Virus genome (UHGV): UHGV-2079066
Source: a virus
Length of the DNA: 40,071 nucleotides
Strand: one strand, 5' to 3'
A program made the position numbers and the translations under genes. The notes below the pieces were generated by a model. It saw only the letters and a program-made list of their open reading frames with translations, was not told the origin of the DNA and ran no database searches. Below, one piece after another: positions 10,400 through 23,121 of the stretch (its first letter is position 1; each line of letters begins with the position of its first letter).

Positions 10400-10721
10400 A
10401 GCGCACTCCTCCCAGGCTTTCCGCCGCAGACATCATCACATCGTCATCCATCGGTAAGGTATCCTGCTCAGGTGGGTTAAGCAGGCTAAAATCACGGGGC
10501 GTAAATTCGGCTTTTGAACACAGCATTGAAACCATAAGATGGCTGAGACGGGAGAAATGGGTGTCCAGAAGATCGCCTTCAAAATACTGCTGCTGATAGT
10601 AACGCCCCCATTCAGCCAGCTCGGACGATGACATGCCGGCAAGCATGACGCGCCAGTCGGGGCGCCGAAACTCGCGCGCCAGCTTCATTACAAAGCTCAG
10701 CTCACCGGCTAATGCTTTTCC
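10380..10721 (-). CDS. gpT-frame segment of a G-T fusion made by programmed -1 frameshift
   Basis: seen: ORF in the -1 frame relative to G stays open across the G stop; candidate slip site G-GAA-AAG at 10715-10721 (plus strand CTTTTCC). known: G/G-T frameshifting is conserved in lambda-like tail operons. Confidence 0.6.
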   Translation of the reverse strand, partial: GKALAGELSFVMKLAREFRRPDWRVMLAGMSSSELAEWGRYYQQQYFEGDLLDTHFSRLSHLMVSMLCSKAEFTPRDFSLLNPPEQDTLPMDDDVMMSAAESLGGVRYGPVSG

Positions 10722-11119
10722 GCGCTGATGGGCTCGTCTTCCGTCACTACGTCTGTACTTTTCTCTTCGTCCGCCGGTACCGGTTCCGATACAGGGATCA
10801 TGTCAGAAAGCGTTTTCACAAAAAGTTCGCCAGCGCCAATCATTCCCGGCGGCCAGCCGGACAGCACTTCATAATGCAGAGAATCGATCTCTTTAGAGGT
10901 GTCCCCCTGCCATAGCGATAACGCGATCACCATCGCGCCGCTCCGGAGATTGCTGCTAACCCGTAACGGGAGATATCCCTCATCACCTTCGTCTTTCGGC
11001 AATGTTTTTTCTTCCTTCGCCAGGTATTGCAGATATTCAATACGTTGCAGGCCAGACAACTCAAACAACTGGATGGTGCTGCCGTTATAGGTGAACGGCT
11101 CAGATTTCAGAAAGCTCAT
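10709..11119 (-). CDS. G: tail assembly chaperone gpG-like
   Basis: seen: MSFLKSEPFTYNGSTIQLFELSGLQRIEYL... resembles recalled lambda G; position between V and tape measure. Confidence 0.8.
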   Translation of the reverse strand: MSFLKSEPFTYNGSTIQLFELSGLQRIEYLQYLAKEEKTLPKDEGDEGYLPLRVSSNLRSGAMVIALSLWQGDTSKEIDSLHYEVLSGWPPGMIGAGELFVKTLSDMIPVSEPVPADEEKSTDVVTEDEPISAEKH

Positions 11120-11130
11120 GGAGTACTCCA

Positions 11131-11154
11131 GGAAAATGACGGGGCCAGCGCCCC
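11131..11154 (-). terminator. attenuator-like hairpin after major tail gene
   Basis: seen: minus strand GGGGCGCTGGCCCC followed by GUCAUUUUCC, then SD of G. Confidence 0.4.
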
Positions 11155-11159
11155 GCCTG

Positions 11160-11897
11160 TCAGGAAACGGTGACTTTGCAGATCGCGACTTTCAGCCCGT
11201 CGTTGGACATCACGATAATTTCAGCAGCGCCTGTGGCTACGCCGGTGATGGTCAGGACATCGCCGTTAGCAGTAACTGTCGCTTTCGCCGGATCAGAGGA
11301 GGCAACACGGAAAGATTTGTCTGTAGCGCCAGCAGGGTTGACAGTAACGTTAACGGTGTCAGACGCGCCGGCGGCAACAGTCAGGGTTGCTTTATCAATC
11401 GTCACACCGGTAACCGGCACGACAGGCGCGCGCGTTTCTTCCGCCAGCGATGGCTTGCCGTTGTTGCTGATCTTCACGCTGCGGGTAATGACTTCCTTCG
11501 CCGGGATGGTTTTACCGAGGCTGCTGACCCACCCCTTAAAGACGTCGATCGTCCCGTTCGGGTATTTAATTTTGTAGGCGCGCACGGCGCCGCTATAGAA
11601 CCAGTCCACCAGAGATTGCTGCCCTGATTCACCCGGCTTCCAGGCCAGGGTGAAACTGGCTTCACCGGCTGACTTCTCCCCCTGCGCTGTGTTTGCCCAG
11701 TCTGCATTCGGATCGTCAAGGTAGGTGTCGTCATAGGACTCTGCGGTCAGTTCACCTGGCGTCAGGTCTTTGATTTTGGCCGTACGGGTCCAGTCGGTGT
11801 CACTGGTCGGATTGGCATAAGGGTCGCCTGAGCCGTTGTAAATCCAGAACGTTGTGCCTGCCCCTTTTACGGGCTCAAGCGGGTTCGGTGTTGGCAT
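11160..11897 (-). CDS. V: major tail protein gpV-like with C-terminal Ig-like domain
   Basis: seen: [30 protein letters not shown]...[13 protein letters not shown]... near-collinear with recalled lambda V; C-terminal repeats of Thr/Val are Ig-like. Confidence 0.9.
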
Positions 11898-11904
11898 GTT
11901 TACC

Positions 11905-12303
11905 TCACATTACGTATGAAATTGAGTATTTGAGATCAGCCGATCCCCATGTCGCCATTTCGTCATCGCGCTGATAGTCATAGCCCTGAGCTGACATGGT
12001 TTCGATTAAGGGGAAAAGGCCGGGGAGTGCGTTAAGCTGGGGATAGATTTTGCTTTCCATCCAGGTATCCAGCGCTGTATCCGTTTCGCTCGCTTTCAGG
12101 AACACCTCGATATGAAGCGTGGCGCGCCAGATATCTTCGTCGATGGATTCCTCCGTGGACTGCGCGTCAGTGATATAGACGGCGACAGCAGGGAGATCTT
12201 CGGACTCAAGTACAGCGGGACGGCCATCAGACCACGTTACAGGATCGGTAATGCCAGCTTTCAACGCATCCAGAACCGCCAGGCGGATCAGTGGATGTTT
12301 CAT
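11905..12303 (-). CDS. U: tail terminator gpU-like
   Basis: seen: [14 protein letters not shown]...DGRPAV...PAVAVY...LHIEVFL...WMESKIYP...GYDYQRDD matches recalled lambda U throughout. Confidence 0.9.
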
Positions 12304-12854
12304 TTGGTCAGGATTATCCTCAGTTGATTGCGTAAGGCCGCTGAGAGCTCTTTCGGAAGATCCGTTGCCGTCAGGCGGGTGCTTTCCTGCTTGAATGCCT
12401 CCGTCAGCGGTACCGCCAGAGGAATGCTCACCACCTCGAGCGGGTAGCGGCTTTTGGTGGTTCTCCGTAGGACATGCCAGCGCCCGTTTTTGAGCTGCTG
12501 AATGAATCCGCCCGGGAAGCGAAACCGCCCGATGACCAGAACGCTTCGGACACCGGCCTTGTCACGTTTTCGCCGGGAAAGACGCACGCTGGCCACGCCC
12601 AGCTTGATCGCCGGGAGGTTGCCCCGGTTGACCCGAATAGTGGCCTGCGGTTTACGTACCGTGGCTTTCTTCAGGCGTGCACGCTGATTGACGAGTTTTC
12701 GCTGCACCCGGGTTTCCTTCGCAACCTGACGGGTGCTGCGGGAGATGGCCCGGGTGGCCACACGGTTCACCGCCTGAGAGGATGCACGTGGCACAGCGGT
12801 TTTGCTGATGCTTTCCAGGTTAGCGATCGCCTGTTCGAGCCCTTTAATGGACAT
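12300..12854 (-). CDS. Z: tail completion protein gpZ-like
   Basis: seen: from ATG 12854 (SD GGAGG) MSIKGLEQAIANLESISKTAVP...FIQQLKNGRWHV matches recalled lambda Z. The track ORF has a 58-codon upstream extension. Confidence 0.85.
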   Translation of the reverse strand: MSIKGLEQAIANLESISKTAVPRASSQAVNRVATRAISRSTRQVAKETRVQRKLVNQRARLKKATVRKPQATIRVNRGNLPAIKLGVASVRLSRRKRDKAGVRSVLVIGRFRFPGGFIQQLKNGRWHVLRRTTKSRYPLEVVSIPLAVPLTEAFKQESTRLTATDLPKELSAALRNQLRIILTK

Positions 12855-12864
12855 AGAGCCTCCA

Positions 12865-13140
12865 TTACTCAATCCAGATCTGTGGCTTACCGTTGAACAA
12901 CTGTTTGCGGGTAACGGTGTAGTCCTGGCCCTTCCAGTGAATGACATCGCCTTTGCGTGGCGACACTGCCGGGGAGAACACCACCAGTGACAGGCCATCC
13001 CCCACCAGCGGCCCCATTTCTGCGACAAACTGGCTTTCTACAGCATCAAAAATGACCCCGTTGATCGTGACTTTATCCGCCATCAGATTGACGGTGGCCG
13101 CGTCCATACGGGCCACCATCGCGTCGAAGGGATTAGCCAT
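12865..13140 (-). CDS. head-tail joining protein, FII-like
   Basis: seen: 91 aa from internal ATG; FDAMVARMDA and VINGVIFDAVE...SLVVFSP...RKGDVI resemble recalled lambda FII; position between gpD-like gene and Z. Confidence 0.6.
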   Translation of the reverse strand: MANPFDAMVARMDAATVNLMADKVTINGVIFDAVESQFVAEMGPLVGDGLSLVVFSPAVSPRKGDVIHWKGQDYTVTRKQLFNGKPQIWIE

Positions 13141-13456
13141 TAAGCTTAACCAGTACGGCGGCGGCGTTCGCACCGGCAGCCTGCCAGGCTTTCCCTGCGG
13201 GGGTCGCGCCGGTGGCCTCCAGTTGCACTTTCCCGCTTTTGAAGTAAACGGTCTTGCCCTGGGCGATATCATCCGCCGCCAGCTTCGGCAACTGGACTAC
13301 GCCACTGGTGAGGCCCGTACCAGTTTCGCCGACGGCAATATCAGCGATAGCGATCGCCAGAACATCCCCAACGGCAACCGGCGTGCCACTGGCAATCACC
13401 GCCGACCCCGAGTTGGTCAAATCGATAGTGTGACCATCCTGTACGAAATTCTTCAT
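13133..13456 (-). CDS. head decoration protein, gpD-like family
   Basis: seen: 107 aa from ATG 13456; GDVLAIAIADIA and TVYFKSGKV resemble recalled lambda D motifs GILAVAAD and TFYKSGTF. Sits after the capsid gene, not before as in lambda. Confidence 0.5.
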   Translation of the reverse strand: MKNFVQDGHTIDLTNSGSAVIASGTPVAVGDVLAIAIADIAVGETGTGLTSGVVQLPKLAADDIAQGKTVYFKSGKVQLEATGATPAGKAWQAAGANAAAVLVKLNG

Positions 13457-13498
13457 GAGCTCTCCGTATGGCCCCTGCCGGGGCCATGTTGCAGATAT

Positions 13499-13519
13499 AA
13501 AAAAAGCCCTTACGGGCCG
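13499..13519 (-). terminator. hairpin plus U-tract after capsid gene
   Basis: seen: minus strand ccggcccgtaagggcttttttat. A second GC hairpin (13470-13485) sits just upstream of the gpD-like SD. Confidence 0.5.
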
Positions 13520-13536
13520 GTTCAATGTCGGGGTGA

Positions 13537-15567
13537 TTACTTACCGGATGATTTCGCCAGGCCGCGATAATCCAGCGGCGCCACACCAGCATCGATGCGG
13601 ACTTTCGTCGCAACACCATCAGTGGTGAAACCTTCCTGCTGGTCGATGTACGGGGCATCAATGCCATTGAGGTACGCCACTTCGATGGTATCGGTGCCCT
13701 GTGCGGCAGCCAGATACCAGGCCGCCGGGTCGGCGTCATCCAGACGCGCTTCTGCGATCACTTCGGCAAAGTTCTGCAGCGGGTTCACCACGCCGGCATT
13801 GATATCAGCCCCTTTCACGCTTGCTGACTTAATGGTCTGGCTGGCTAATGTTTCCAGACCCACCGGAACCAGCATGTAGGCCGGACGAATGTTCAGGGCG
13901 CGCTCGCCCTCTTTCTGCTTGCGCATGTTCTGGCGGGCCTTATCCAGGCTGTCAACGCTGATGGCGCCAGCTGAAAGGTTGGCATGGTCAGCATGGAAGA
14001 GCGCCTTGCCATCTGAAAGTTTCCCGTTACCGGTCAGCACGGCGTAGACCAGGTCACCGATAGTGGCTTTTGCAGCGCGGCCCATCTTCATCGGAACGTC
14101 AGTCAGCTGGTTCAGGTCATCGTTGATAATGGCCTGGCGGGTGATGGAGAAGATCTCACCGTAAGTAGCCAGCGCGATGGTTTCACCCTTATCCTGCGTG
14201 GTGATGTACTTATACTCCGCGCCCTCTCGCACCTGACGCAGGGACGGGAAGCCCCCCATGCCGACGCGATGCGCCGTTTTGAAGTCAGAGAGCTGGCCTT
14301 TTTTGGTCCAGAGTTCAAAGGTCTCTGCCGCTTCATCCCAGCCCTGCAACAGCGCTTTGTTGGCGACATCGAGCAGGATATTGCCAAAATCGGAGGTGCT
14401 GTGCGTCAGCGCAAAACCGACCATCTGCATCGGGTTGTAACTGGAGACCCCGATGCCGCGCTCGGTCAAGGACATGCGGGCGTATTCGCGCAGCGTCATA
14501 CCGTTATAGACGTTGTCACGCTCAACATTTTCATAACCGGCACGCGCCATCAGCGCCTGGCGGATCCCGTCGCCAACAAAGTTACCGTTCCCGGCATACA
14601 CATGGGCCTGCCCCTGCGTAGTGGTGTTGGACGGCGTGGCATTTTTACCGAGCTCTGCCAGAAGAACATCTTTCGCCTGGCTGACCGAGCACTCTGGATC
14701 GGCAATACATTTAGCCTGCAGCTCCTGATGCTTTCCGCCGAACATGGCGAAGAGATCCTGAATACCGTTCACGCGTGCCTTTTGCTCCGCAATAACCTGC
14801 GCACGGATATCAGTTTCGCTGGCACCTGCCGCCGGAGCCGGCTGGGTGACAGTTGGCTGCTGTGTTTCGCGCGTAGCGGTATTGCGCGGCGGGGTGACCA
14901 TGTTGCGAATGCTGTTTGGCATCTTTTCAAATTCCTCAATACGTTTCGAATGGATGCAGGCCATTGCCTGCAAGGATGGTGTGACCTGGTCAGCGAAGCC
15001 CAGCTCCAGACATTCAGTGCTGGAGAGCCAGGTCTCTTCCTCCAGCATTGCCGCAATTTCTTCGGTGCTTTTTCCCGTCTTCTGCGCGTATGCCGGGATC
15101 AACACCGACTCCACTTTGTCGAGCAGGTCGGCGTAGTCGCGCATGTCATCAGCATCACCACCCGCAAAACCCCACGGCTTGTGGATCATCATCATGGTGT
15201 TTTCCGGCATGATGACCGGGTTTCCTACCATGGCGATGACTGATGCCATTGAGGCAGCCAGACCGTCGATATAAACGGTGATCGCCGCGCCGTGGAATTT
15301 CAGGGCATTAAAAATGGCGATACCGTCAAAGACATCGCCACCAGGGGAGTTGATATGCAGTTTGATGTGGGTGACATCGCCCAGCGCCTTAAGGTTTGCG
15401 ACGAACTGCTTCGCCGTTACCCCCCAGTAGCCGATCTCGTCGTAGATGTAGATTTCGGCTTCGTTTTCCGAACTGGCCTGCATACGGAACCAGCTATTTT
15501 TTGCCTGGGCTTTCGGGCGGTTCTTTACCCGGTTTTGCTTCCTGGACACGAGTGTCTCCTTTGTCAT
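13537..15567 (-). CDS. fused prohead protease (ClpP-like) - scaffold-like linker - HK97-fold major capsid protein
   Basis: seen: single 763-codon ORF; N-terminal ...NSWFRMQASSENEAEIYIYDEIGYWG...HINSPGGDVFDG... is ClpP/S14-like; C-terminal ~400 aa is capsid-like. Start taken at ATG 15567, which overlaps the portal 3' end by ~74 nt; an alternative ATG at 15483 cannot be excluded. Confidence 0.8.
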   Translation of the reverse strand: MTKETLVSRKQNRVKNRPKAQAKNSWFRMQASSENEAEIYIYDEIGYWGVTAKQFVANLKALGDVTHIKLHINSPGGDVFDGIAIFNALKFHGAAITVYIDGLAASMASVIAMVGNPVIMPENTMMMIHKPWGFAGGDADDMRDYADLLDKVESVLIPAYAQKTGKSTEEIAAMLEEETWLSSTECLELGFADQVTPSLQAMACIHSKRIEEFEKMPNSIRNMVTPPRNTATRETQQPTVTQPAPAAGASETDIRAQVIAEQKARVNGIQDLFAMFGGKHQELQAKCIADPECSVSQAKDVLLAELGKNATPSNTTTQGQAHVYAGNGNFVGDGIRQALMARAGYENVERDNVYNGMTLREYARMSLTERGIGVSSYNPMQMVGFALTHSTSDFGNILLDVANKALLQGWDEAAETFELWTKKGQLSDFKTAHRVGMGGFPSLRQVREGAEYKYITTQDKGETIALATYGEIFSITRQAIINDDLNQLTDVPMKMGRAAKATIGDLVYAVLTGNGKLSDGKALFHADHANLSAGAISVDSLDKARQNMRKQKEGERALNIRPAYMLVPVGLETLASQTIKSASVKGADINAGVVNPLQNFAEVIAEARLDDADPAAWYLAAAQGTDTIEVAYLNGIDAPYIDQQEGFTTDGVATKVRIDAGVAPLDYRGLAKSSGK

Positions 15568-16996
15568 TTGCCGGGTCGGTATCAAACACCAGCCCCTGTT
15601 TACGGTTCTCGTCAACCTCCGCCTTACGGCGGCGCTTAACATCATCAGGATTTGCGCCGCGGGCGCGCACCCATTCACTCTCTGTCGCAGCACCGCCACG
15701 CAGCAGAATTTTCCAGGCGTTCGCCTCTTTGACCGGGTCAATCCAGGGCATAACGGGCCCGGAGAACACGGCGCTAAAGAGCGTGGCTTTATCGACATTT
15801 TTCGGGACCGTGATCTCGCCTGAAGCAATCGCCATCCTGAGCCAGGCCCGGTACATAGGTCGTGTGATCGCCGCGATGAATGCGTCCTGAAGAATGAAAT
15901 AGCCTTCGGTTGACTCCACCAGCTCCTGGCGCTGCGCGCTGTATGTTCCGTCGTAGTTACGGGCGATACTTGAAAAGCTACCGCGCGAACCAGCGGCTAC
16001 AGCACGTAGCTGGCTATTACGGAAAGTTTCGAGGTTGGGATTTGGTCGGTCTGACTTGATCATGCCGATGTCTTCACCCGGGCGGAGATCGTCAAACAGC
16101 ATGCCGGGCTCGATGTTTAGCTCCCTTTGACCGCTGCTGCCTTCGTCATAAGTCTGGCCATCACCTTTTTTAATGAACATGCCCAGTGCCGCAGCAATGC
16201 GGGCAGCGGTCAGTTCGGCGTCCTCGTACTCCTTCAGCGCCGAAAGACGCATCAGCACCCCGGCAAGCAGTGAGTTACCCCGGATTTGATGCAGGCGGCG
16301 CATGAACTTCAGGTGAAGCATATTCTCCGCCTGAATATCCTTGGTATCTCCCTGGCGCATGCCTTCCGCCGGAAGGTTTTTGTAGACCATGTATCGGGTC
16401 GGGCGGCCCCAGTCATTCAGGTAAATGCCCTGGCATAACTTCTGACCCGGCTCTGTCCGCTCCATCGGCACAAAATCCGGTTCCAGAGCCTCAATCCAGA
16501 AAGGAATGTCTGCCACCGGCGACAGACCGTTCCCGGTGCCACTGACCAGCTGCGCGAACACCTCGCCGTCACGTAACCAGGTCCGGCACATCAGGCGCTC
16601 AAGCACTGGTCGGGTAAACTGCCCGGTAACATCGGGAGAAACGGACCACTCCGCCCATTTGGCGCGGATCTGTGTAGCAAGGTCAGTAGCGATGCCCCCG
16701 TTACTCATCAGGGGCTGCGGCTCCACGATGATGCCTTTTGCCCCCACAATGCGCTCTTCGAGTTTATCAAGGAGGCCGATCACCAGATCGTGGTTACAGT
16801 CAAGCCACCGGGCTTGTTCGCGCAGCGATCGCCCGCCGAATTGCGTCAACTGATTCGCGGAGCGGTTTTCGCGTTTTGCCCGGTGCGTCCGGGTAGGAAT
16901 GACAGCCTCATATGCCTGGATCATCAGGCGCGACTTCAGGCGCTCCGCTTTCCAGCCCGGGGAAAACATGCCTATCAGATTATCCAGGGCGCTCAT
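15494..16996 (-). CDS. portal protein (lambda B-like)
   Basis: seen: 500 aa between W-like gene and protease-capsid gene; motif recall of lambda-family portal. Confidence 0.85.
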   Translation of the reverse strand: MSALDNLIGMFSPGWKAERLKSRLMIQAYEAVIPTRTHRAKRENRSANQLTQFGGRSLREQARWLDCNHDLVIGLLDKLEERIVGAKGIIVEPQPLMSNGGIATDLATQIRAKWAEWSVSPDVTGQFTRPVLERLMCRTWLRDGEVFAQLVSGTGNGLSPVADIPFWIEALEPDFVPMERTEPGQKLCQGIYLNDWGRPTRYMVYKNLPAEGMRQGDTKDIQAENMLHLKFMRRLHQIRGNSLLAGVLMRLSALKEYEDAELTAARIAAALGMFIKKGDGQTYDEGSSGQRELNIEPGMLFDDLRPGEDIGMIKSDRPNPNLETFRNSQLRAVAAGSRGSFSSIARNYDGTYSAQRQELVESTEGYFILQDAFIAAITRPMYRAWLRMAIASGEITVPKNVDKATLFSAVFSGPVMPWIDPVKEANAWKILLRGGAATESEWVRARGANPDDVKRRRKAEVDENRKQGLVFDTDPANDKGDTRVQEAKPGKEPPESPGKK

Positions 16997-17214
16997 CGCG
17001 GGAACCTCGCCAGTTTAAAGGGGCCACCCCTGCCCGCTGCGGCAGCCACGGCAGCAGCCTGCTTTCGCTCCCACTCCTGGCGGCCCTTCCGGATCTCGCT
17101 CAGGTTCTCCATGGTCATCTGCTGACCGTTAAACGTAATGGACTTACCCTGCAGGATCGCCATTTCCGCTTCGGTATAGCGGCGAACCATGTCCTGAATA
17201 TCATTGAGATTCAC
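16993..17214 (-). CDS. head-tail joining protein gpW-like
   Basis: seen: GTG start preceded by AGGAGG and overlapping terL stop (GTGA); ~73 aa; position between terL and portal as in lambda. Confidence 0.6.
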   Translation of the reverse strand: MNLNDIQDMVRRYTEAEMAILQGKSITFNGQQMTMENLSEIRKGRQEWERKQAAAVAAAAGRGGPFKLARFPR

Positions 17215-19313
17215 ACCCAGCCTCCTGATGATGATGACCATGCCGATTCACGGGCTGGTTTCTTAGCCTTAGGCTCTGATACTGACGGTTTTGCAACCGG
17301 CTCCGGTGCCACTGCAGGCGCGTCTGGCGATGGCTCAACCACCAGATAACTCTCCCGGCGCGCCCACTCAGGGGCATCAGGCCACTTAATCTTTTCGTAA
17401 CCATGAAGAATGACCAGGGCATGTGCGTAAACCATAAGGTCAAACGCTTCGTTAGCCCCCTTACCAGGCTTCGTCCATTTCCCATCAGCTGATCGCTCCT
17501 CATAGGTCAGTTCGTCGTAAAACCACCCTCCCAGCCAGTCAGGGAAATGCACGAAGTTCGGCCCCGGCACATCGCGCCAAAGCGCGTTGTTGATCCGGTC
17601 TTTCAGTGCGTTGGTCTGGAGAAGGTAGAGAGGGACATCACCGGCGGCCTTCGCGCGCCGGGTAGAACGCCCGGTGTTATCCGGGTAGGTTTTGGTAATC
17701 AGCTTCGCCCTGGTCTGGCTGTCACCCTTGAACAGCCAGACTTTGCGCTGCAGACCGTCACGGCGACAGCGCCGCCAGAACTCATAGGCATTGTCGGTAA
17801 CGCCATCTTCACCACCGGAGTCGACGGCCATGGCCAGCAGACCCATTCGCTTGCCCGGTTCGCCATCAAGCGCCCAGGTTTTCTCCAGCACATCGGTGCG
17901 CAGCAGATCCCAGTCCTCCGGATAGCTGGCAGGATCGATGTGGTAGCTTTCGCCGTCAGGCGTGGTGCGCATCGACTGCATGATGTTGTACCGGTCAACC
18001 ACCCAACGCTCGCCGTGGGCGCCGTAGCCAACAACCTGCACCACAAATCGCCGGTTTTTACCGCCCTGAACATCGACGGTCGCCACCAGGAAGTTGACGC
18101 CAGCAGGCACGCGCCGGCGCTCAACAGGTTCGGCGCGCTGCTGCAGCTCCTCACCTTTACGTTGTTCAATGCTGGAGCGCGGGAGATACGGGAGTCCCCA
18201 GTCGGTGTTAATGACCGTCTTCAGCGTTTCTTCGCTGCCGGTCGCCTCGTACTCCTGTTCAGCGGTCAGCAGTTTGTAAACCAGTTGTGCCCAGGTCTGA
18301 TATGCAGCTGCCGGGCCTTCCATCCAGAACGACGCTATTCGCGACCGCCGTCCGGTGCCCGTTATTGTTCCGCTGCTGTCGATCTGCTGATCCTCACGCA
18401 GCCAGACACCTTTCATATTCAGGGAACGTTTCAGGTCGGCGGTGATCACCCCGGAGCAGGAAGGGCAATGGATACAGGCCGCTTCGCTGGCCTTTACCGG
18501 ATCGCTGATTTCCCGGTAACCGGTCATCGCCGTCATCTCTGGCTGGAAAAACTCACCACAATGCGGACATGGCCAGTACCAGCGGCGGCGGTCGCCGCGG
18601 TTGTACAGTGACAGAATGCCGGTTGTGGGTGGGGCTTCGTGCGCCGAGCTCCGGCGCCACTTCGTATCGCGAATGTCCCGGCCTGGCGAACTCTCAACCA
18701 GCGTCATGCCGGACGACATAAACGTGGTGGTACGCTTGGAGGCCAGGGAAAATGCATCACCTTCCCCGTCGATATCCTCCGGGAAGCGGTCATAATCTGT
18801 CAGGGCGACGCACTTGTAATCCGACGAGGACATGATATTGACCGACGGCCAGCCTATCTTGAGGTAGTTACCCGCCCTGAATGTCCTGTCGTAAACGTTG
18901 TTATCGTTCCTGCGGGGACTCAGGCGGGTTGCCACTTCCGGACTGCAACGGAATGTGCGATCCAGTCGTTTCTTCGAGTGCTCGCGGGCCTTTTCCTCTG
19001 TCATCTGAATAATCAGCATGTCAGACGGGTCGCAGACCACGTTATAAACCACCCACCCGTCAATCAGGCCGATTGTCTTCCCCGTTCGCGCCGGGCCGAC
19101 AAACACCACCGCGTCATACTCACGCGACGCCAGGCAGTTCATTGGCTCGAGTACATACGGAGCCAGGTTCGGATCCCAGGGAACGGAGTTACCGGCACCC
19201 ATTGGCACGCGCATAAATTTACTGACTGCATCGGCCACCAGCATGCGGCGTGGGGCACGAAGTATTCCAGGGACATCCTTTCGGATCCCCCGGGCAGATG
19301 CCCGCTTCGCCAT
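17211..19313 (-). CDS. terL: terminase large subunit (lambda gpA-like)
   Basis: seen: 700 aa with Walker-A-like VFVGPARTGKT; start overlaps terS stop. Confidence 0.9.
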   Translation of the reverse strand: MAKRASARGIRKDVPGILRAPRRMLVADAVSKFMRVPMGAGNSVPWDPNLAPYVLEPMNCLASREYDAVVFVGPARTGKTIGLIDGWVVYNVVCDPSDMLIIQMTEEKAREHSKKRLDRTFRCSPEVATRLSPRRNDNNVYDRTFRAGNYLKIGWPSVNIMSSSDYKCVALTDYDRFPEDIDGEGDAFSLASKRTTTFMSSGMTLVESSPGRDIRDTKWRRSSAHEAPPTTGILSLYNRGDRRRWYWPCPHCGEFFQPEMTAMTGYREISDPVKASEAACIHCPSCSGVITADLKRSLNMKGVWLREDQQIDSSGTITGTGRRSRIASFWMEGPAAAYQTWAQLVYKLLTAEQEYEATGSEETLKTVINTDWGLPYLPRSSIEQRKGEELQQRAEPVERRRVPAGVNFLVATVDVQGGKNRRFVVQVVGYGAHGERWVVDRYNIMQSMRTTPDGESYHIDPASYPEDWDLLRTDVLEKTWALDGEPGKRMGLLAMAVDSGGEDGVTDNAYEFWRRCRRDGLQRKVWLFKGDSQTRAKLITKTYPDNTGRSTRRAKAAGDVPLYLLQTNALKDRINNALWRDVPGPNFVHFPDWLGGWFYDELTYEERSADGKWTKPGKGANEAFDLMVYAHALVILHGYEKIKWPDAPEWARRESYLVVEPSPDAPAVAPEPVAKPSVSEPKAKKPARESAWSSSSGGWV

Positions 19314-19801
19314 CAGTCCTCCTCTGGCTCATCCTCCTCCGGTTCTGCGTCCAGCACGCGCTGCGCAATCTGGTCGCGAAGATCGTCAATCACACTCTGC
19401 ACGCGGCTGACAGCTGCGGGGTTCAGCGCGCAGTCACGCTCCAGAATGTCCGGTAACGTTTCCAGCACCTGCACCACAGCTTTTGCCATGACAGAAAATT
19501 CACGGGCCACCTCATCTGCCGGGATTAACTGGCCGGTATCCTGCTCAAATTTGAGCCGCTCGTTTTCCGCTTTCCAGTGGGCGAGCCTGTCCGAGGGCGT
19601 CATATCTTCGGCGCTGGACGCGACGACGGGCGCCATCAGTTCGGTGAGCACATCAGTGATGAGGTAGAGTTTGAGTTTGTTGTTGCTGCCCAGCGCAGGC
19701 TCGAGTTGCTTAAGCCTGGCGGCAACGGTCTGGCGATGAACGCCGGTGATCCCTGCCAGCTGATTGATGTTCAGCTTCAGGGTGGAAAGCTCCTGGTCCA
19801 T
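19313..19801 (-). CDS. terS: terminase small subunit (Nu1-like, N-terminal HTH)
   Basis: seen: LKLNINQLAGITGVHRQTVAARLKQ resembles recalled Nu1 HTH; acidic C-terminus. Start is ATG 19801 or GTG 19813; neither has a clear SD. Confidence 0.75.
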   Translation of the reverse strand: MDQELSTLKLNINQLAGITGVHRQTVAARLKQLEPALGSNNKLKLYLITDVLTELMAPVVASSAEDMTPSDRLAHWKAENERLKFEQDTGQLIPADEVAREFSVMAKAVVQVLETLPDILERDCALNPAAVSRVQSVIDDLRDQIAQRVLDAEPEEDEPEED

Positions 19802-19904
19802 GATGGTGAACACTTTTTGAACGATTCGACATCATTGCAAAACGTCACTGATAAAAATCATACAGTTATGCACATGATGATGATGACCCTGGATCACGAA
19901 AACT

Positions 19905-19940
19905 AGCCGTTTTCCGCGTGCCCGCCGCCTCGTGGCAGGC
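19905..19940 (-). other. candidate cos site (cosN-like)
   Basis: seen: minus strand GAGGCGGCGGGCACGCGGAAAACGGC ~115 bp upstream of terS resembles recalled lambda left end GGGCGGCGACCTCGCGGGTTTTCGC. Exact nick positions unknown. Confidence 0.4.
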
Positions 19941-20043
19941 CACCCCTCCGGGAGGACCCGTCCATATGAGAATGGTTATCAGTTGAGGTGGGGATCTGGC
20001 GGGGTTGCCCGGCTAGTCTGGGCGCTGGATGGGGCTGATGGTT

Positions 20044-20383
20044 AGAAGCCGAGGCGAACGCGACCCTCAGGGTCGTTTGCATTGGTGGTAATCCACGCAG
20101 TGCCTGCAACGGCGTTGTCATCAGTGCCATCCTTCGAGCTACTGGTCAACTTGCCATCTTTCGTCAGCCAGAGTCGGACCCCGCGCTGCTAGGTCTCAGC
20201 TGCAACCTTCGGCAAGACGAATACTCCGGTCATCATCAGAACACCATCACCGCTGGCGGCGATATCGTGCTGAGCGATACCGATGATCGCACCAACAATC
20301 ACCGGTTGACCTGACACCACATCTTTTGTGGTCCCGTTATGCCAGTCCATTGTATTGCCGTCCTGGTAGTAGTTTTTAGCCAT
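20044..20383 (-). pseudogene. second gpD-like paralog interrupted by in-frame TAG (stop at 20189-20191)
   Basis: seen: ATG 20383 with GAGG SD gives MAKNYYQDGNTMDWHNGTTKDVVSGQPVIVGAIIGIAQHDIA...LPKVAAET-TAG-QRGSDLWLTKDGKLTSS...; homology to the 13133-13456 paralog continues through the stop. Confidence 0.5.
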
Positions 20384-20536
20384 ATTGGGCCTCTGGTTAT
20401 GCCTGATAAGCAGGTTAAAAGAATAGGTATTACGTTCGTTGCGCCGGGTGCGCTGAGGGGTAATTGACATGAGCATGTGTCTTCACATGATGATGTTAAC
20501 TATCAGCCCCGCGAGAGCGAGGCTGCAAATAGCATG

Positions 20537-20836
20537 CTACGGTCTTGAAGTGCTCACGATGTATGAATCCACCACGCCGTCCTTATTTACTTTGACGACG
20601 AGCGATTTGCCCTGCCCCACGCTGAACGCTGTTGCATGAGCGTAGGTCCAACCATAAATCTTATTGCCCTCGGAATCGGCAGTTACTGAGGTTGGCTTAC
20701 CGAACTTCTGCAAAACAGCCTGCTCAGTCGTAACCCCCTTTTGGATTGAGGTGACATCTGCTTCCGAAAAGTCTTTACCCACCGTCGCGCAACCGACCAG
20801 ACCCAAAGCAATGACACCCAGAATTGTCTTTTTCAT
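20537..20836 (-). CDS. outer-membrane lipoprotein, SmpA/OmlA (BamE-like) family; moron
   Basis: seen: signal peptide plus lipobox LVGC; DVTSIQKGVTTEQAVLQKFGKP resembles recalled BamE motif; AAGGGA SD. Confidence 0.6.
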   Translation of the reverse strand: MKKTILGVIALGLVGCATVGKDFSEADVTSIQKGVTTEQAVLQKFGKPTSVTADSEGNKIYGWTYAHATAFSVGQGKSLVVKVNKDGVVDSYIVSTSRP

Positions 20837-20993
20837 TGATATATCCCTTATTTAAAAAGAGGATAATCCTACCACCGAGCCATCTGAAGCGCGAAGACTA
20901 CATGGCCTGCGGTAAAGTCTTTGTGATCAGCGCAGTAGCCTGAACGGTCCGTAGTCGTACCGGGACAACCTCTCTTGCGACATGCGCGAGGGA

Positions 20994-21227
20994 TTAACGC
21001 TGGCATGGTTCAATCCTCACAGAGCCGTGAAGCGTATGCCGCTTCACTTCACCGTTCTCTGTCGTCATATAACCACGCTCATCAGGAACGGCTGCGATTA
21101 CTTCGCCCTTCTCATCGTCAGCAGTGAAGACATGCTTAACCTCTATACCATCGAGAAAAACAGCGTATCGCTCTACACCGAGATTAATCTTCCTGCCGGG
21201 ATCGTCATCTAATACAGTTAGACGCAT
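20994..21227 (-). CDS. hypothetical small protein (77 aa)
   Basis: seen: ATG 21227 with AAGAGG SD; MRLTVLDDDPGRKINLGVERYAVFLDGIEVKHVF.... Track ORF starts 18 codons upstream without SD. Confidence 0.5.
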   Translation of the reverse strand: MRLTVLDDDPGRKINLGVERYAVFLDGIEVKHVFTADDEKGEVIAAVPDERGYMTTENGEVKRHTLHGSVRIEPCQR

Positions 21228-21372
21228 ATGACCTCTTGTTAGGTTCATTTTTGTGTTCGAAGTGGCATCAAATTGAGACATAACTCTAATAACTTAAACT
21301 TTCTCATTCTTTAGTATTGATATTGGCCTTAATGGCTCAATGTTTATTAACTCATCAATAAGAGGTTTAATT

Positions 21373-21813
21373 ATGAGCATCGACTATTTAGACGTCCGTA
21401 AGGTTATTAAGTGTGCAGAACACAAAAAGGCTTTAGATGAAAAAGCAATCAAACTTAAGAAAAACGTTATTGACTCATGCAAAGAAAGTTCTTTAACTTC
21501 TAACACCTTGATTTTCAATCAAGATGCAGAAAACAGACTAACCCTAGAACTTTCAACATATGGGTTAGAACTCGTTTTCAATGAGAAACTGGTAGTCATC
21601 AATGAAGCCCCTCTTTTGAAGTTCGTTGCAACTGACTCAACTGATGAAAATAACAAGGAAGTAATTAGCTTCTTTTTAGGTAAAAATGGGTTGGTTTACA
21701 TTGGGGAGTACAAACCTAATCCATCTTATGATTATGAAGATGTTGATCTATTTCTCGATATACTTGAAGCTACATTAAAAGCGCTCAAGTCTTCCGATAA
21801 AATATCCTATTAA
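21373..21813 (+). CDS. hypothetical acidic protein, AT-rich moron on the opposite strand
   Basis: seen: ATG 21373 with AGAGG SD; markedly AT-rich codon usage versus neighbours; convergent with 21859-22089; hairpin 21820-21845 downstream. Confidence 0.55.
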   Translation: MSIDYLDVRKVIKCAEHKKALDEKAIKLKKNVIDSCKESSLTSNTLIFNQDAENRLTLELSTYGLELVFNEKLVVINEAPLLKFVATDSTDENNKEVISFFLGKNGLVYIGEYKPNPSYDYEDVDLFLDILEATLKALKSSDKISY

Positions 21814-21858
21814 CTGATGGCAGGCACCTGATACGTGCCTGCTGTAATGCATGATAGT

Positions 21859-22089
21859 TTAAGAGAAGGAGAGGCCCAAATTAACCAGTACATCTTTTTT
21901 CTCCTCTATACGCCGATCAAGTTCATCCACTGCATGCGGGCGTATGGCATCAAGAAAGGCATTATCCTGATAGGTCGACTGGATTGTCACCCCAAGTCCG
22001 GCACCGCTTTCCAGTATGCCTTTCTGTCGCTGTAGCTCTTTCATCTCGTTATAGATGTAATGCGCGTCACTTAGGTTCTCTACGTTCAC
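21859..22089 (-). CDS. hypothetical small protein (76 aa)
   Basis: seen: GTG start preceded by GAAGGAG at 7 nt; overlaps 3' end of upstream lipoprotein ORF. Confidence 0.45.
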   Translation of the reverse strand: MNVENLSDAHYIYNEMKELQRQKGILESGAGLGVTIQSTYQDNAFLDAIRPHAVDELDRRIEEKKDVLVNLGLSFS

Positions 22090-22309
22090 GACCTGGCTCC
22101 TTCATGCAGTTAGCCTGCACTGATTTGTTGTGCGCCAATATGTCCCGCTTCGTCTGTTTATCCAGCACGGCAATATCGTGCTCAGTGAGGTAGATGATGC
22201 TCACCCAGTCACAGGCCGTGTCCGTTACTTCAGGTTTTGCGGGTAAATTTTTCGCGCAACTCGCGGTCAACATCGTCATCAGGAAGATGATTAACAGTCT
22301 GCTGTACAT
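22067..22309 (-). CDS. lipoprotein, candidate o-spanin (Rz1-like)
   Basis: seen: signal peptide plus lipobox LTASC; start lies inside the 3' part of the i-spanin-like ORF in another frame. inference: spanin pair from architecture. Confidence 0.5.
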   Translation of the reverse strand: MYSRLLIIFLMTMLTASCAKNLPAKPEVTDTACDWVSIIYLTEHDIAVLDKQTKRDILAHNKSVQANCMKEPGRERREPK

Positions 22310-22499
22310 CCCTGGCTCCTTTTGTTGTTTCTACCCGGCGTTCGGCTACCGCTTCTGTAGCTGCTGCACGCTCTTCAGTGCGTTGCTGGTCCGCTTTTGT
22401 TTCTGCGATACTGGTACCGCGAGATTTACCCAGACCAAAGGCACCTGCAATTGCTGCCAGCGCGGCAACAATCAGGCCGATAATCATTTCAAGTCCCAT
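22230..22499 (-). CDS. candidate i-spanin (Rz-like), N-terminal TM plus charged helix
   Basis: seen: MGLEMIIGLIVAALAAIAGAFGL then Glu/Arg/Ala-rich region; immediately downstream of endolysin. Shorter (89 aa) than typical Rz. Confidence 0.5.
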   Translation of the reverse strand: MGLEMIIGLIVAALAAIAGAFGLGKSRGTSIAETKADQQRTEERAAATEAVAERRVETTKGARDVQQTVNHLPDDDVDRELREKFTRKT

Positions 22500-22506
22500 A
22501 GTGACC

Positions 22507-23121
22507 TCACACCAGTGCGGCTTTAGCTTTGGCGTAACGTTCACGGCGGTCTTTAATGCCGTTCTGCCCGCCGTTAATAATCTGCGTGACGCGTTCCACA
22601 TCCCCCGAATAGAGGAGACAACCGCGTAACGTGAAGTACCATGCCGCCGAACGGGCCGCGTGTCGCTCTTGCGTCAATAGTTCCGGAGTGCTCACAAGGT
22701 CAAGCTTTAGCGCCGTACCGCATTTGGTGTAGTTCTCACGACCAGTGATTTGCAGCAGGCCACGACCGCGATATTTCCAGCCGTCACCCTGGCTGTTATT
22801 CCCCATGCGGTCACCGTAAACCAGATTGGCTATTTGTGGCTGGTGAGCGACCTGTTTACCATCAACACGCCCCAGCATTTCACACTGATACGATGTCAGG
22901 CGATTACCGAAGGTTTTCTTCAGCCCTTCAACCGAGTAGTTAAAACTCTCGGCCAACGAAGTAAAGCCAGCAGACTCATGCCCGACTTGTGCAATGAACA
23001 TAGCCTGATCATTAACCGCTGTAATTCCAAACTCTTTCATTGCCGCGTCAATGTGCGGAAACCAGCGTGCAGAAAGCCCGGCGCTGATACCAGCCGCCTG
23101 CTGAAATTGTGATTGGTTCAT
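22507..23121 (-). CDS. endolysin, glycoside hydrolase family 19 (chitinase-like lysozyme)
   Basis: seen: ...FIAQVGHESAGFTSL...GRGLLQITGRENY...; no N-terminal signal-anchor segment. Confidence 0.85.
   Translation of the reverse strand: MNQSQFQQAAGISAGLSARWFPHIDAAMKEFGITAVNDQAMFIAQVGHESAGFTSLAESFNYSVEGLKKTFGNRLTSYQCEMLGRVDGKQVAHQPQIANLVYGDRMGNNSQGDGWKYRGRGLLQITGRENYTKCGTALKLDLVSTPELLTQERHAARSAAWYFTLRGCLLYSGDVERVTQIINGGQNGIKDRRERYAKAKAALV

What the first reader, a model, noticed from the sequence alone, without database searches (positions are those of the whole stretch)
20044..20383. Second gpD-like paralog outside the head operon, interrupted by an in-frame amber codon
This ORF has its own SD and ATG and is homologous to the 13133-13456 gene on both sides of a TAG at 20189-20191 (LPKVAAET-stop-QRGSDLWLTKDGKLT against LPKLAADDIAQGKTVYFKSGKVQL). 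It is either a recent nonsense pseudogene, a 64-aa truncated product, or a gene dependent on stop-codon readthrough. Its location between cos and the lysis-side morons is unusual for a capsid accessory gene.
Basis: seen in the sequence. Interest (0 to 1): 0.5.

Follow-up and report, generated by a model that had tools for sequence, protein, structure and literature searches.

The report
Recently amber-broken second capsid cement gene
A lambda-like prophage carries a second capsid "cement" gene just before its DNA packaging site, and in this copy one very recent G-to-A change at a known methylation hotspot turned a conserved tryptophan codon into a stop, so it is an ordinary fresh pseudogene and not a recoded gene.

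Summary
On the minus strand, 20383..20042 is a 113-codon gene with an SD, an ATG and an in-frame TAG at codon 65 (20189-20191). It belongs to Pfam PF09956 (Phage_cement_2, formerly DUF2190), as does the head-operon gene 13456..13133 (40% identity). It is not lambda gpD.

The sequence after the stop is homologous. It adds 18 bits to the Pfam score and matches an intact 113-aa protein exactly.

Codon 65 is Trp (TGG) in every full-length homologue and in all 30 related DNA loci. A metagenome contig 99.86% identical to the window over 10.9 kb has TGG. Within the gene it differs only at window base 20190.

The ancestral sequence there is CCAGG, a Dcm site, and the window has CTAGG. This is the classic 5-methylcytosine deamination change.

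The TAG allele occurs in at least two independently sequenced samples, so it is not a sequencing error. It is rare: 5 contigs against 142 for the intact allele.

TAG ends three other genes of the prophage, and the window has no tRNA. Readthrough is therefore not supported.

The intact gene family always sits about 110 bp upstream of cos and is under strong purifying selection (dN/dS about 0.06). Interest is low.

The parts
20042..20383 (-). Disrupted cos-proximal capsid cement gene (PF09956, formerly DUF2190): 113 codons plus TAA, with an amber codon at position 65
   Evidence: Translation. Pfam 68.6 bits against a cut-off of 24. PHROG 122 'head decoration'. Intact 113-aa homologues reach 88% identity. 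P0039 matches exactly apart from the restored W65.
20192..20383 (-). Codons 1-64, the only part translated up to the amber codon (64-aa product P0040)
   Evidence: The exact 64-aa product is called on 5-7 contigs.
20189..20191 (-). Amber codon TAG, derived from Trp codon TGG by a G-to-A change on the coding strand (C-to-T at 20190 on the + strand)
   Evidence: All five genome relatives have TGG. So do 22 of 22 viral contigs and 3 of 3 JGI metagenome contigs. L042 differs from the window only at 20190 within the gene.
20189..20193 (.). Former Dcm site: ancestral CCAGG, now CTAGG. The mutated base is the inner, methylated cytosine.
   Evidence: Sequence context of the L042/window SNP. Dcm and VSP repair biology from PMC2715241.
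20042..20188 (-). Untranslated remainder: codons 66-113 plus TAA. It is still in frame and carries no further damage.
   Evidence: 100% amino-acid identity to intact P0039. dN/dS after the stop is about 0.05, the same as before it.
20390..20393 (-). Shine-Dalgarno GAGG, six bases upstream of the ATG
   Evidence: Read directly from the sequence.
19919..19930 (-). Inferred cosN 12-nt cohesive-end sequence (AGGCGGCGGGCA on the minus strand), 111 bp downstream of the gene's stop codon
   Evidence: Alignment to the annotated cohesive end GGGCGGCGCGCT of Escherichia phage LLS. The position is inferred by homology and was not tested.
19313..19801 (-). Terminase small subunit (DUF1441, Nu1-like), the first gene after cos
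   Evidence: Pfam label on the identical contig L007. Its distance from the cement gene is conserved in all loci that reach it.
13133..13456 (-). Head-operon cement paralogue (107 aa), intact, directly after the ClpP-major capsid fusion gene
   Evidence: Pfam PF09956 at 80.7 bits. PHROG 122. Named 'capsid cement protein' in NCBI records.
13537..15549 (-). ClpP protease-major capsid protein fusion gene (670 aa), the presumed binding partner of the cement proteins
   Evidence: Pfam labels PF00574 and PF25209 on the identical contig L007. 56% identity to the Hafnia phage yong2 homologue.

Best explanation
The locus is a very recent loss-of-function allele of a conserved accessory gene. The intact gene encodes a 113-aa capsid cement (decoration) protein of family PF09956. 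It is the last gene before cos in a lambda-like prophage lineage of Enterobacteriaceae, and exact copies of its proteins are recorded from E. coli.

The gene is probably transcribed with the late operon, which would run from the lysis genes across cos into the head genes. This is inferred.

By homology, its product should bind as an oligomer to the outside of the HK97-fold capsid lattice and stabilise it. The closest solved structure is a trimer. It would act alongside the 107-aa head-operon cement protein. This too is inferred.

In this prophage the inner cytosine of a Dcm site (CCAGG, + strand 20189-20193) changed to T. That converted the nearly invariant Trp65 codon TGG to TAG on the coding strand. 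The sequence change is shown. Its cause, deamination of 5-methylcytosine that escaped very-short-patch repair, is inferred.

Translation now stops after 64 residues. The fragment lacks the last three of nine predicted beta strands and the conserved C-terminus, so it is most likely non-functional. Any full-length protein would come only from unprogrammed leakage at the UAG.
For: 1. Trp65 is invariant in 30 full-length homologues. It is TGG in all 5 genome loci, 22 viral contigs and 3 metagenome contigs.
2. L042 is 99.863% identical to the window over 10,939 bp, with 15 SNPs. Within the gene it differs only at 20190, where it has TGG.
3. The ancestral context is CCAGG and the window has CTAGG. 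Of the four Trp codons in the gene, only codon 65 lies in a CCTGG context. T:G mismatches from 5-methylcytosine deamination at CCWGG are the target of VSP repair (PMC2715241).
4. The TAG allele is on contigs from different sources, and these are 100.000% identical to the window: ENA ERZ1303386 over 20 kb and Logan SRR29027556 over 10.5 kb. The exact intact protein is on 142 contigs and the truncated one on 5.
5. There is no other damage. The 48 residues after the stop are identical to the intact protein. dN/dS against relatives is about 0.05 after the stop and about 0.06 before it.
6. The intact family is under strong purifying selection, with a median pairwise dN/dS of 0.06 among 23 distinct alleles. 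It is always about 565 bp upstream of the Nu1 start.
8. TAG ends three other genes of the prophage, and the window holds no tRNA.
Against: No raw reads were available, so the allele frequency within any one sample is unknown. Contig L009, a 99.7%-identical relative, ends one base before the TAG, which could indicate polymorphism at that site.

The host's dcm/vsr status was not examined, so the deamination mechanism rests on sequence context alone. It is a single event, and about 1% of positions in this region are inner C/G positions of CCWGG sites.

The capsid-binding function of the intact protein is inferred from family, fold and gene expression context, not shown. This copy is not next to the capsid gene.

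Low-level UAG readthrough cannot be excluded.
Confidence: 0.87

Rival explanations
1. The TAG is a sequencing or assembly error, and the gene is really intact in this genome.
For: It is a single-base difference from a 99.86%-identical relative. The intact allele is far more common, on 142 contigs against 5.
Against: The same TAG sits in contigs assembled from different runs and pipelines: ENA ERZ1303386 (that contig seen in 3 samples), Logan SRR29027556, and a JGI/IMG record. All compared contigs are 100% identical to the window over 10-20 kb. A substitution at a non-homopolymer site is not a typical assembly artefact.
Confidence: 0.03
2. The gene depends on amber suppression or programmed readthrough. 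Full-length protein would be made at a reduced, regulated level, by leaky termination at UAG-C or by a host suppressor tRNA.
For: The frame after the stop is perfectly preserved. The stop is followed by C, which from my own knowledge is a weak termination context in E. coli. Some leakage is therefore likely.
Against: TAG at this codon is absent from all 30 related loci, and the pattern scan found none in JGI metagenomes. A near-identical prophage has TGG, so the preserved frame is explained by recency. TAG terminates the portal, tail-chaperone and lipoprotein genes of the same prophage. The window has no tRNA gene. The downstream sequence is the same as in TGG relatives, so there is no dedicated signal.
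Confidence: 0.04
3. The truncation is adaptive. Either the 64-aa N-terminal fragment has its own function, or loss of the gene is favoured in the lysogen.
For: The allele has spread to several samples. Other sporadic broken alleles exist: P0048 is frameshifted after W72, and P0035 is also frameshifted. This shows that loss is tolerated.
Against: All TAG contigs compared are 100% identical over 10-20 kb, which means one clone and not recurrent selection. The intact allele predominates. The family is under strong purifying selection along its whole length, including codons 66-113. The fragment lacks the conserved residues G94, W97, V109, R110, L111 and G112.
Confidence: 0.05

Closest known systems
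Pfam PF09956 Phage_cement_2 (formerly DUF2190) / PHROG 122 'head decoration' proteins, for example the head-operon genes of phages mEp043 and mEp213 and of Hafnia phage yong2
   Same: The HMM match is well above the cut-off and PHROG 122 matches. Size and conserved residues agree. Identity to the yong2 'capsid fiber protein' is 63%. All residues invariant in true head-operon members are kept, except the mutated W65.
   Different: The gene is not next to the major capsid gene. It lies on the other side of cos, as the last gene of the right arm. It coexists with a second family member in the head operon. In this window it carries a nonsense codon.
Solved capsid decoration/cement proteins with the same fold: phiCD508 gp48, the HFTV1 capsid stabilisation protein and cyanophage Pam3 cement protein
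   Different: Sequence identity is only 13-17%. Oligomeric state and binding site on this phage's capsid are unknown. None of those phages was checked here for two paralogous copies.
Lambda gpD / phage 21 SHP head decoration protein
   Same: The expected role is analogous: a small accessory protein stabilising a lambda-like capsid. The prophage also has a lambda-like packaging module (Nu1/A terminase, cos).
Nonsense mutations at Dcm (CCWGG) 5-methylcytosine hotspots in E. coli, as in the classic lacI amber hotspots. The lacI example is from my own knowledge; VSP repair context is from PMC2715241.
   Same: CCAGG changed to CTAGG at the inner cytosine and created TAG.
   Different: The amber here arises on the complementary strand (TGG to TAG), not from CAG to TAG. 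Methylation at this site and the host's dcm status were not tested.

Membership tests
PF09956 Phage_cement_2 (DUF2190) capsid cement proteins | Match to the family HMM above the curated cut-off over the full domain | tested here: met
   68.6 bits against a cut-off of 24, covering profile positions 2-103 of 103 for the joined sequence. The N-terminal half alone scores 50.3 bits.
PF09956 Phage_cement_2 (DUF2190) capsid cement proteins | All-beta fold shared with solved capsid cement/decoration proteins | tested here: met
PF09956 Phage_cement_2 (DUF2190) capsid cement proteins | Gene placed immediately downstream of the major capsid protein gene | tested here: not met
   This copy lies upstream of cos, 6.9 kb from the head-operon copy, which does sit after the ClpP-MCP gene. 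Gene position is typical of the family but does not define it.
PF09956 Phage_cement_2 (DUF2190) capsid cement proteins | Protein present on the virion capsid | not testable with these tools
   Needs virion proteomics or cryo-EM.
Lambda gpD head decoration family | Sequence-family match to gpD/SHP | tested here: not met
   No gpD family among the Pfam hits at E <= 1.
Lambda gpD head decoration family | gpD fold over the whole protein | tested here: not met
Programmed stop-codon readthrough or stop-codon recoding | The in-frame stop is conserved among homologues | tested here: not met
   TGG in 5 of 5 genome loci, 22 of 22 viral contigs and 3 of 3 metagenome contigs. The pattern scan found no TAG in JGI metagenomes.
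Programmed stop-codon readthrough or stop-codon recoding | The stop codon is not used as a terminator elsewhere, or a suppressor tRNA is present | tested here: not met
   TAG ends three other genes among 28 gene calls. ARAGORN finds no tRNA in the window. The host genome outside the window was not available.
Recent nonsense pseudogene | A single-base difference from an intact, otherwise identical allele, with no secondary damage | tested here: met
   L042 differs from the window only at 20190 within the gene. The exact W65 protein P0039 is on 142 contigs. dN/dS after the stop is about 0.05.
Recent nonsense pseudogene | The mutation is real and not an error | tested here: met
   The TAG is identical in assemblies from different sources. 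Raw reads were not available.
Dcm-site 5-methylcytosine deamination mutation | C-to-T at the inner C of CCWGG | tested here: met
   Ancestral GCTGCCAGGTC against GCTGCTAGGTC in the window.
Dcm-site 5-methylcytosine deamination mutation | The host methylates CCWGG (dcm present) | not tested
   No host chromosome is in the window. Exact copies of the prophage proteins are recorded from E. coli, which from my own knowledge normally carries dcm.

The most novel reading that the evidence does not exclude
The intact cos-proximal gene may not be a redundant spare. It could be a second, non-equivalent capsid protein captured from cos-myoviruses. It might occupy sites different from those of the head-operon cement protein, form mixed oligomers with it, or act as a decoy against related superinfecting phages. 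This lambda-like lineage keeps it at the extreme right end of the chromosome. On this reading, the amber allele in the window is a natural knockout that would make the question directly testable.
Probability: 0.2. Interest if true: 0.45.

Novelty: new member of a known kind. Interest (0 to 1): 0.2.

Why it matters
The amber codon matters little. It is a textbook fresh nonsense mutation in an accessory prophage gene. Annotators should mark the gene as a pseudogene and not as a recoded gene.

A minor point of interest is the architecture the finding drew attention to. A lambda-like prophage lineage in Enterobacteriaceae keeps two PF09956 cement genes. One is fixed about 110 bp upstream of cos, under strong purifying selection, and is closer to the cement genes of cos-myoviruses than to its own genome's head-operon copy. 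No cultured phage in the searched collection showed two copies.

The naturally occurring TAG/TGG pair of near-identical prophages would be a ready-made experiment on whether the second cement protein contributes to capsid stability.

Tried and rejected
- Complete RefSeq E. coli genomes, megablast with 601 bp and then 2 kb: no match to the gene, only terminase at about 77% identity. No PGAP annotation of this locus could be consulted.
- tRNA scan of the window: no tRNA or suppressor.
- Promoter and terminator scan of 19700-22700: nothing on the minus strand next to the gene, and counts were at shuffle level. There is therefore no evidence for independent, moron-like transcription.
- PDB sequence-profile search: only a marginal hit to Pam3 cement at E = 0.17. 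The fold search was needed instead.
- JGI metagenome scan with a degenerate pattern carrying TAG: zero hits. The TGG control gave three.
- Literature searches for DUF2190, PF09956 and amber/decoration protein/prophage: nothing on a cos-proximal second cement gene.
- Local duplication as the origin of the paralogue: rejected. The copy is 63% identical to the yong2 head-operon gene but only 40% to its own genome's copy, while the two capsid proteins are 56% identical.
- TAG reassignment: rejected on stop-codon usage.

Full report
**What is there**

The feature is on the minus strand. An ATG at 20383-20381 is preceded by GAGG (20393-20390) six bases upstream. The frame runs for 113 codons to a TAA at 20044-20042. 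Codon 65 is TAG (20189-20191). The finding's coordinates are essentially right, but 20044 is the first base of the stop codon.

**Is the similarity real on both sides of the stop?**

Yes.
- BLASTP of the joined translation against the head-operon gene 13456..13133 (107 aa) gives 40% identity over 77 residues, E = 2e-16, and the alignment crosses the stop.
- Pfam PF09956 (Phage_cement_2, formerly DUF2190) matches residues 7-111, covering the whole profile at 68.6 bits. The first 64 residues alone give 50.3 bits.
- PHROG 122, 'head decoration', matches both paralogues.
- The protein database holds many intact 113-aa homologues at up to 88% identity.
- An exact-sequence look-up finds a protein (P0039) identical to the window's translation at every residue except Trp in place of the stop.

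**What the stop replaces**

In an alignment of 30 full-length homologues, position 65 is an invariant Trp. At the DNA level the codon is TGG in all five loci from species-representative genomes: Leclercia, and two prophages each in Buttiauxella gaviniae and B. massiliensis. A degenerate pattern allowing TAG or TGG found 22 IMG/VR viral contigs. All have TGG and an intact 113-codon frame. In JGI metagenomes the TAG version of the pattern found nothing and the TGG version found three contigs.

One of these, L042 (OIWN01002867.1), is 99.863% identical to the window over 10,939 bp, with 15 SNPs. Within the gene it differs only at window base 20190, where it gives TGG. The ancestral intact allele therefore exists in an almost identical prophage, and the nonsense change is a single, very recent transition.

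**How the mutation probably arose**

On the + strand the ancestor reads GCTGCCAGGTC and the window reads GCTGCTAGGTC. The changed base is the inner cytosine of a CCWGG Dcm site. Of the gene's four Trp codons, only codon 65 lies in a CCTGG context. Deamination of 5-methylcytosine at CCWGG gives the T:G mismatches that very-short-patch repair exists to correct (PMC2715241). The classic lacI amber hotspots have the same origin (my own knowledge). This step is inferred from sequence context, because the host's dcm status was not available.

**Real or artefact?**

The exact 64-aa product is called on contigs from different sources. L007 (ENA ERZ1303386) is 100.000% identical to the window over 20,195 bp. 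L008 (Logan SRR29027556) is 100.000% identical over 10,558 bp. Both contain the TAG. The collection records the truncated protein on 5 contigs (JGI/IMG, Logan, ENA) and the intact one on 142 contigs, many from E. coli draft genomes. The mutation is therefore real, belongs to one clone, and is rare. Raw reads could not be examined.

**Recoding or readthrough?**

This is not supported.
- TAG is not conserved at this codon in any relative.
- TAG is the ordinary terminator of three other genes in the prophage: the lipoprotein, the portal and the tail assembly chaperone.
- There is no tRNA gene in the window.
- The intact frame after the stop is explained by recency.
- Against relatives, dN/dS is about 0.05 after the stop and about 0.06 before it, so the lineage has spent almost none of its divergence time as a pseudogene.
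- The base after the stop is C, a weak context in E. coli from my own knowledge. A trace of unprogrammed leakage is possible.

**What the intact gene is**

An AlphaFold2 model of the 88%-identical homologue P0001 is confident, with mean pLDDT 91.8 and nine beta strands. Its best structural matches are all capsid accessory proteins:

The amber fragment keeps six strands. It loses the last three strands and the conserved G94, W97 and V109-G112. I infer that it is non-functional.

**Context and evolution of the family**

The surrounding gene order on the minus strand is:
- holins
- endolysin
- small variable genes
- a 99-aa lipoprotein gene
- this cement gene
- cos
- Nu1-like small terminase
- gpA-like large terminase
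- W-like protein
- portal
- ClpP-major capsid fusion
- the 107-aa cement gene
- tail genes

By alignment with the annotated cohesive end of phage LLS, cosN corresponds to 19919-19930. That is 111 bp beyond the gene's stop codon. In every related locus that extends far enough, the gene sits 536-577 bp upstream of the Nu1 start. The 107-aa-type paralogue is about 6.9 kb further on in each of the six related loci where it was detected (67-100% identity). The upstream neighbour varies. The two-copy arrangement is thus a fixed trait of this prophage lineage, seen in Leclercia, Buttiauxella and Atlantibacter contigs and, by the names database records give exact or near-exact proteins, in E. coli, Enterobacter and Kluyvera.

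More distant homologues are the single, canonical cement gene directly after the ClpP-capsid gene in prophages and phages with contractile tails. These include P0028 (64%), P0033 (55%) and the Hafnia phage yong2 gene (63%). The window's capsid protein is 56% identical to yong2's. Its own head-operon cement protein is only 36% identical to yong2's. The cos-proximal copy is therefore best read as captured from that other lineage and not as a local duplicate.

Among 23 distinct intact alleles, the median pairwise dN/dS is 0.06 with near-saturated dS. The gene is a divergence island at 75-92% nucleotide identity, next to terminase genes at 94-98% (L001 excepted, where the terminase genes are only 85-87%). 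In the cultured-phage collection, each of 49 matching records has a single copy, and each copy whose position I compared with the terminase or cos lies in the head operon. Complete RefSeq E. coli genomes lack the gene.

No sigma-70-like promoter or terminator was found next to it on the coding strand. This fits co-transcription with the late operon across cos, but that remains an inference.

**Verdict**

The feature is an ordinary, fresh TGG-to-TAG mutation at a Dcm site in a conserved accessory capsid cement gene. The only mildly novel aspect is the conserved second, cos-proximal cement gene itself, whose specific role is unknown. The natural TAG/TGG pair would allow a direct test of that role.

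Noticed in passing
window 20042-20383 compared with L018-L039 and L001: The cos-proximal cement gene is a divergence island. It shows 75-92% nucleotide identity to relatives whose adjacent Nu1 and gpA genes are 94-98% identical (L001 excepted), yet dN/dS is only about 0.06. This looks like old alleles shuffled by recombination, with cos as a mosaic boundary.
   Followed up: partly
L002 (6458 bp), L003 (6300 bp) and L021: Contigs from Buttiauxella gaviniae ATCC 51604 end 116 bp after the cement gene's stop codon, which is at the inferred cos site. This suggests assembly breaks where two prophages begin to share their terminase modules, or reads from linear virion DNA.
   Followed up: no
L009 (ENA ERZ28574855 scaffold, 2167 bp): A 99.72%-identical relative whose contig ends one base before the TAG position. 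Its allele cannot be read. The break may reflect a C/T polymorphism in that sample's assembly graph.
   Followed up: no
L015-L017 (Atlantibacter prophages), e.g. L015 7877-8875: A 332-aa gene with a Phage_Tail_Tip (PF09327, gpJ C-terminal-like) domain sits directly upstream of the cos-proximal cement gene. This is a second structural-type gene in the right-arm accessory region.
   Followed up: no
window 20537-20836 (-): A 99-aa predicted lipoprotein gene (signal peptide with a Cys lipobox; PHROG 3135; weak Cor superinfection-exclusion hit at E = 0.0012) lies just upstream of the cement gene. It is present in only a subset of related prophages.
   Followed up: partly
window 21373-21813 (+): An opposite-strand ORF of 146 aa (157 aa from the upstream ATG at 21340) lies between the lysis genes and cos and has no PHROG match. 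The Leclercia relative L001 carries a different 150-aa gene on the opposite strand at the same place. This appears to be an exchangeable moron slot.
   Followed up: no
window 9827-20765 compared with L042: Apart from the nonsense change, 13 coding SNPs separate the two near-identical prophages: 7 synonymous and 6 non-synonymous. One is gpA W219 in the window against R in L042, where the Leclercia homologue has W. This ratio is much less constrained than the long-term dN/dS and is typical of very recent divergence.
   Followed up: partly
window 10380-11119 (-): Tail assembly chaperone pair (PF06894, then PF06223), laid out like lambda G/GT. The first ORF ends in TAG. This is presumably the usual programmed -1 frameshift.
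   Followed up: no
cluster members P0048, P0035 and P0045: Other sporadic damaged or shortened versions of the same cos-proximal gene exist in public data, including frameshifts after W72 and after L71. Some may be sequencing errors in long-read or metagenome assemblies.
   Followed up: no
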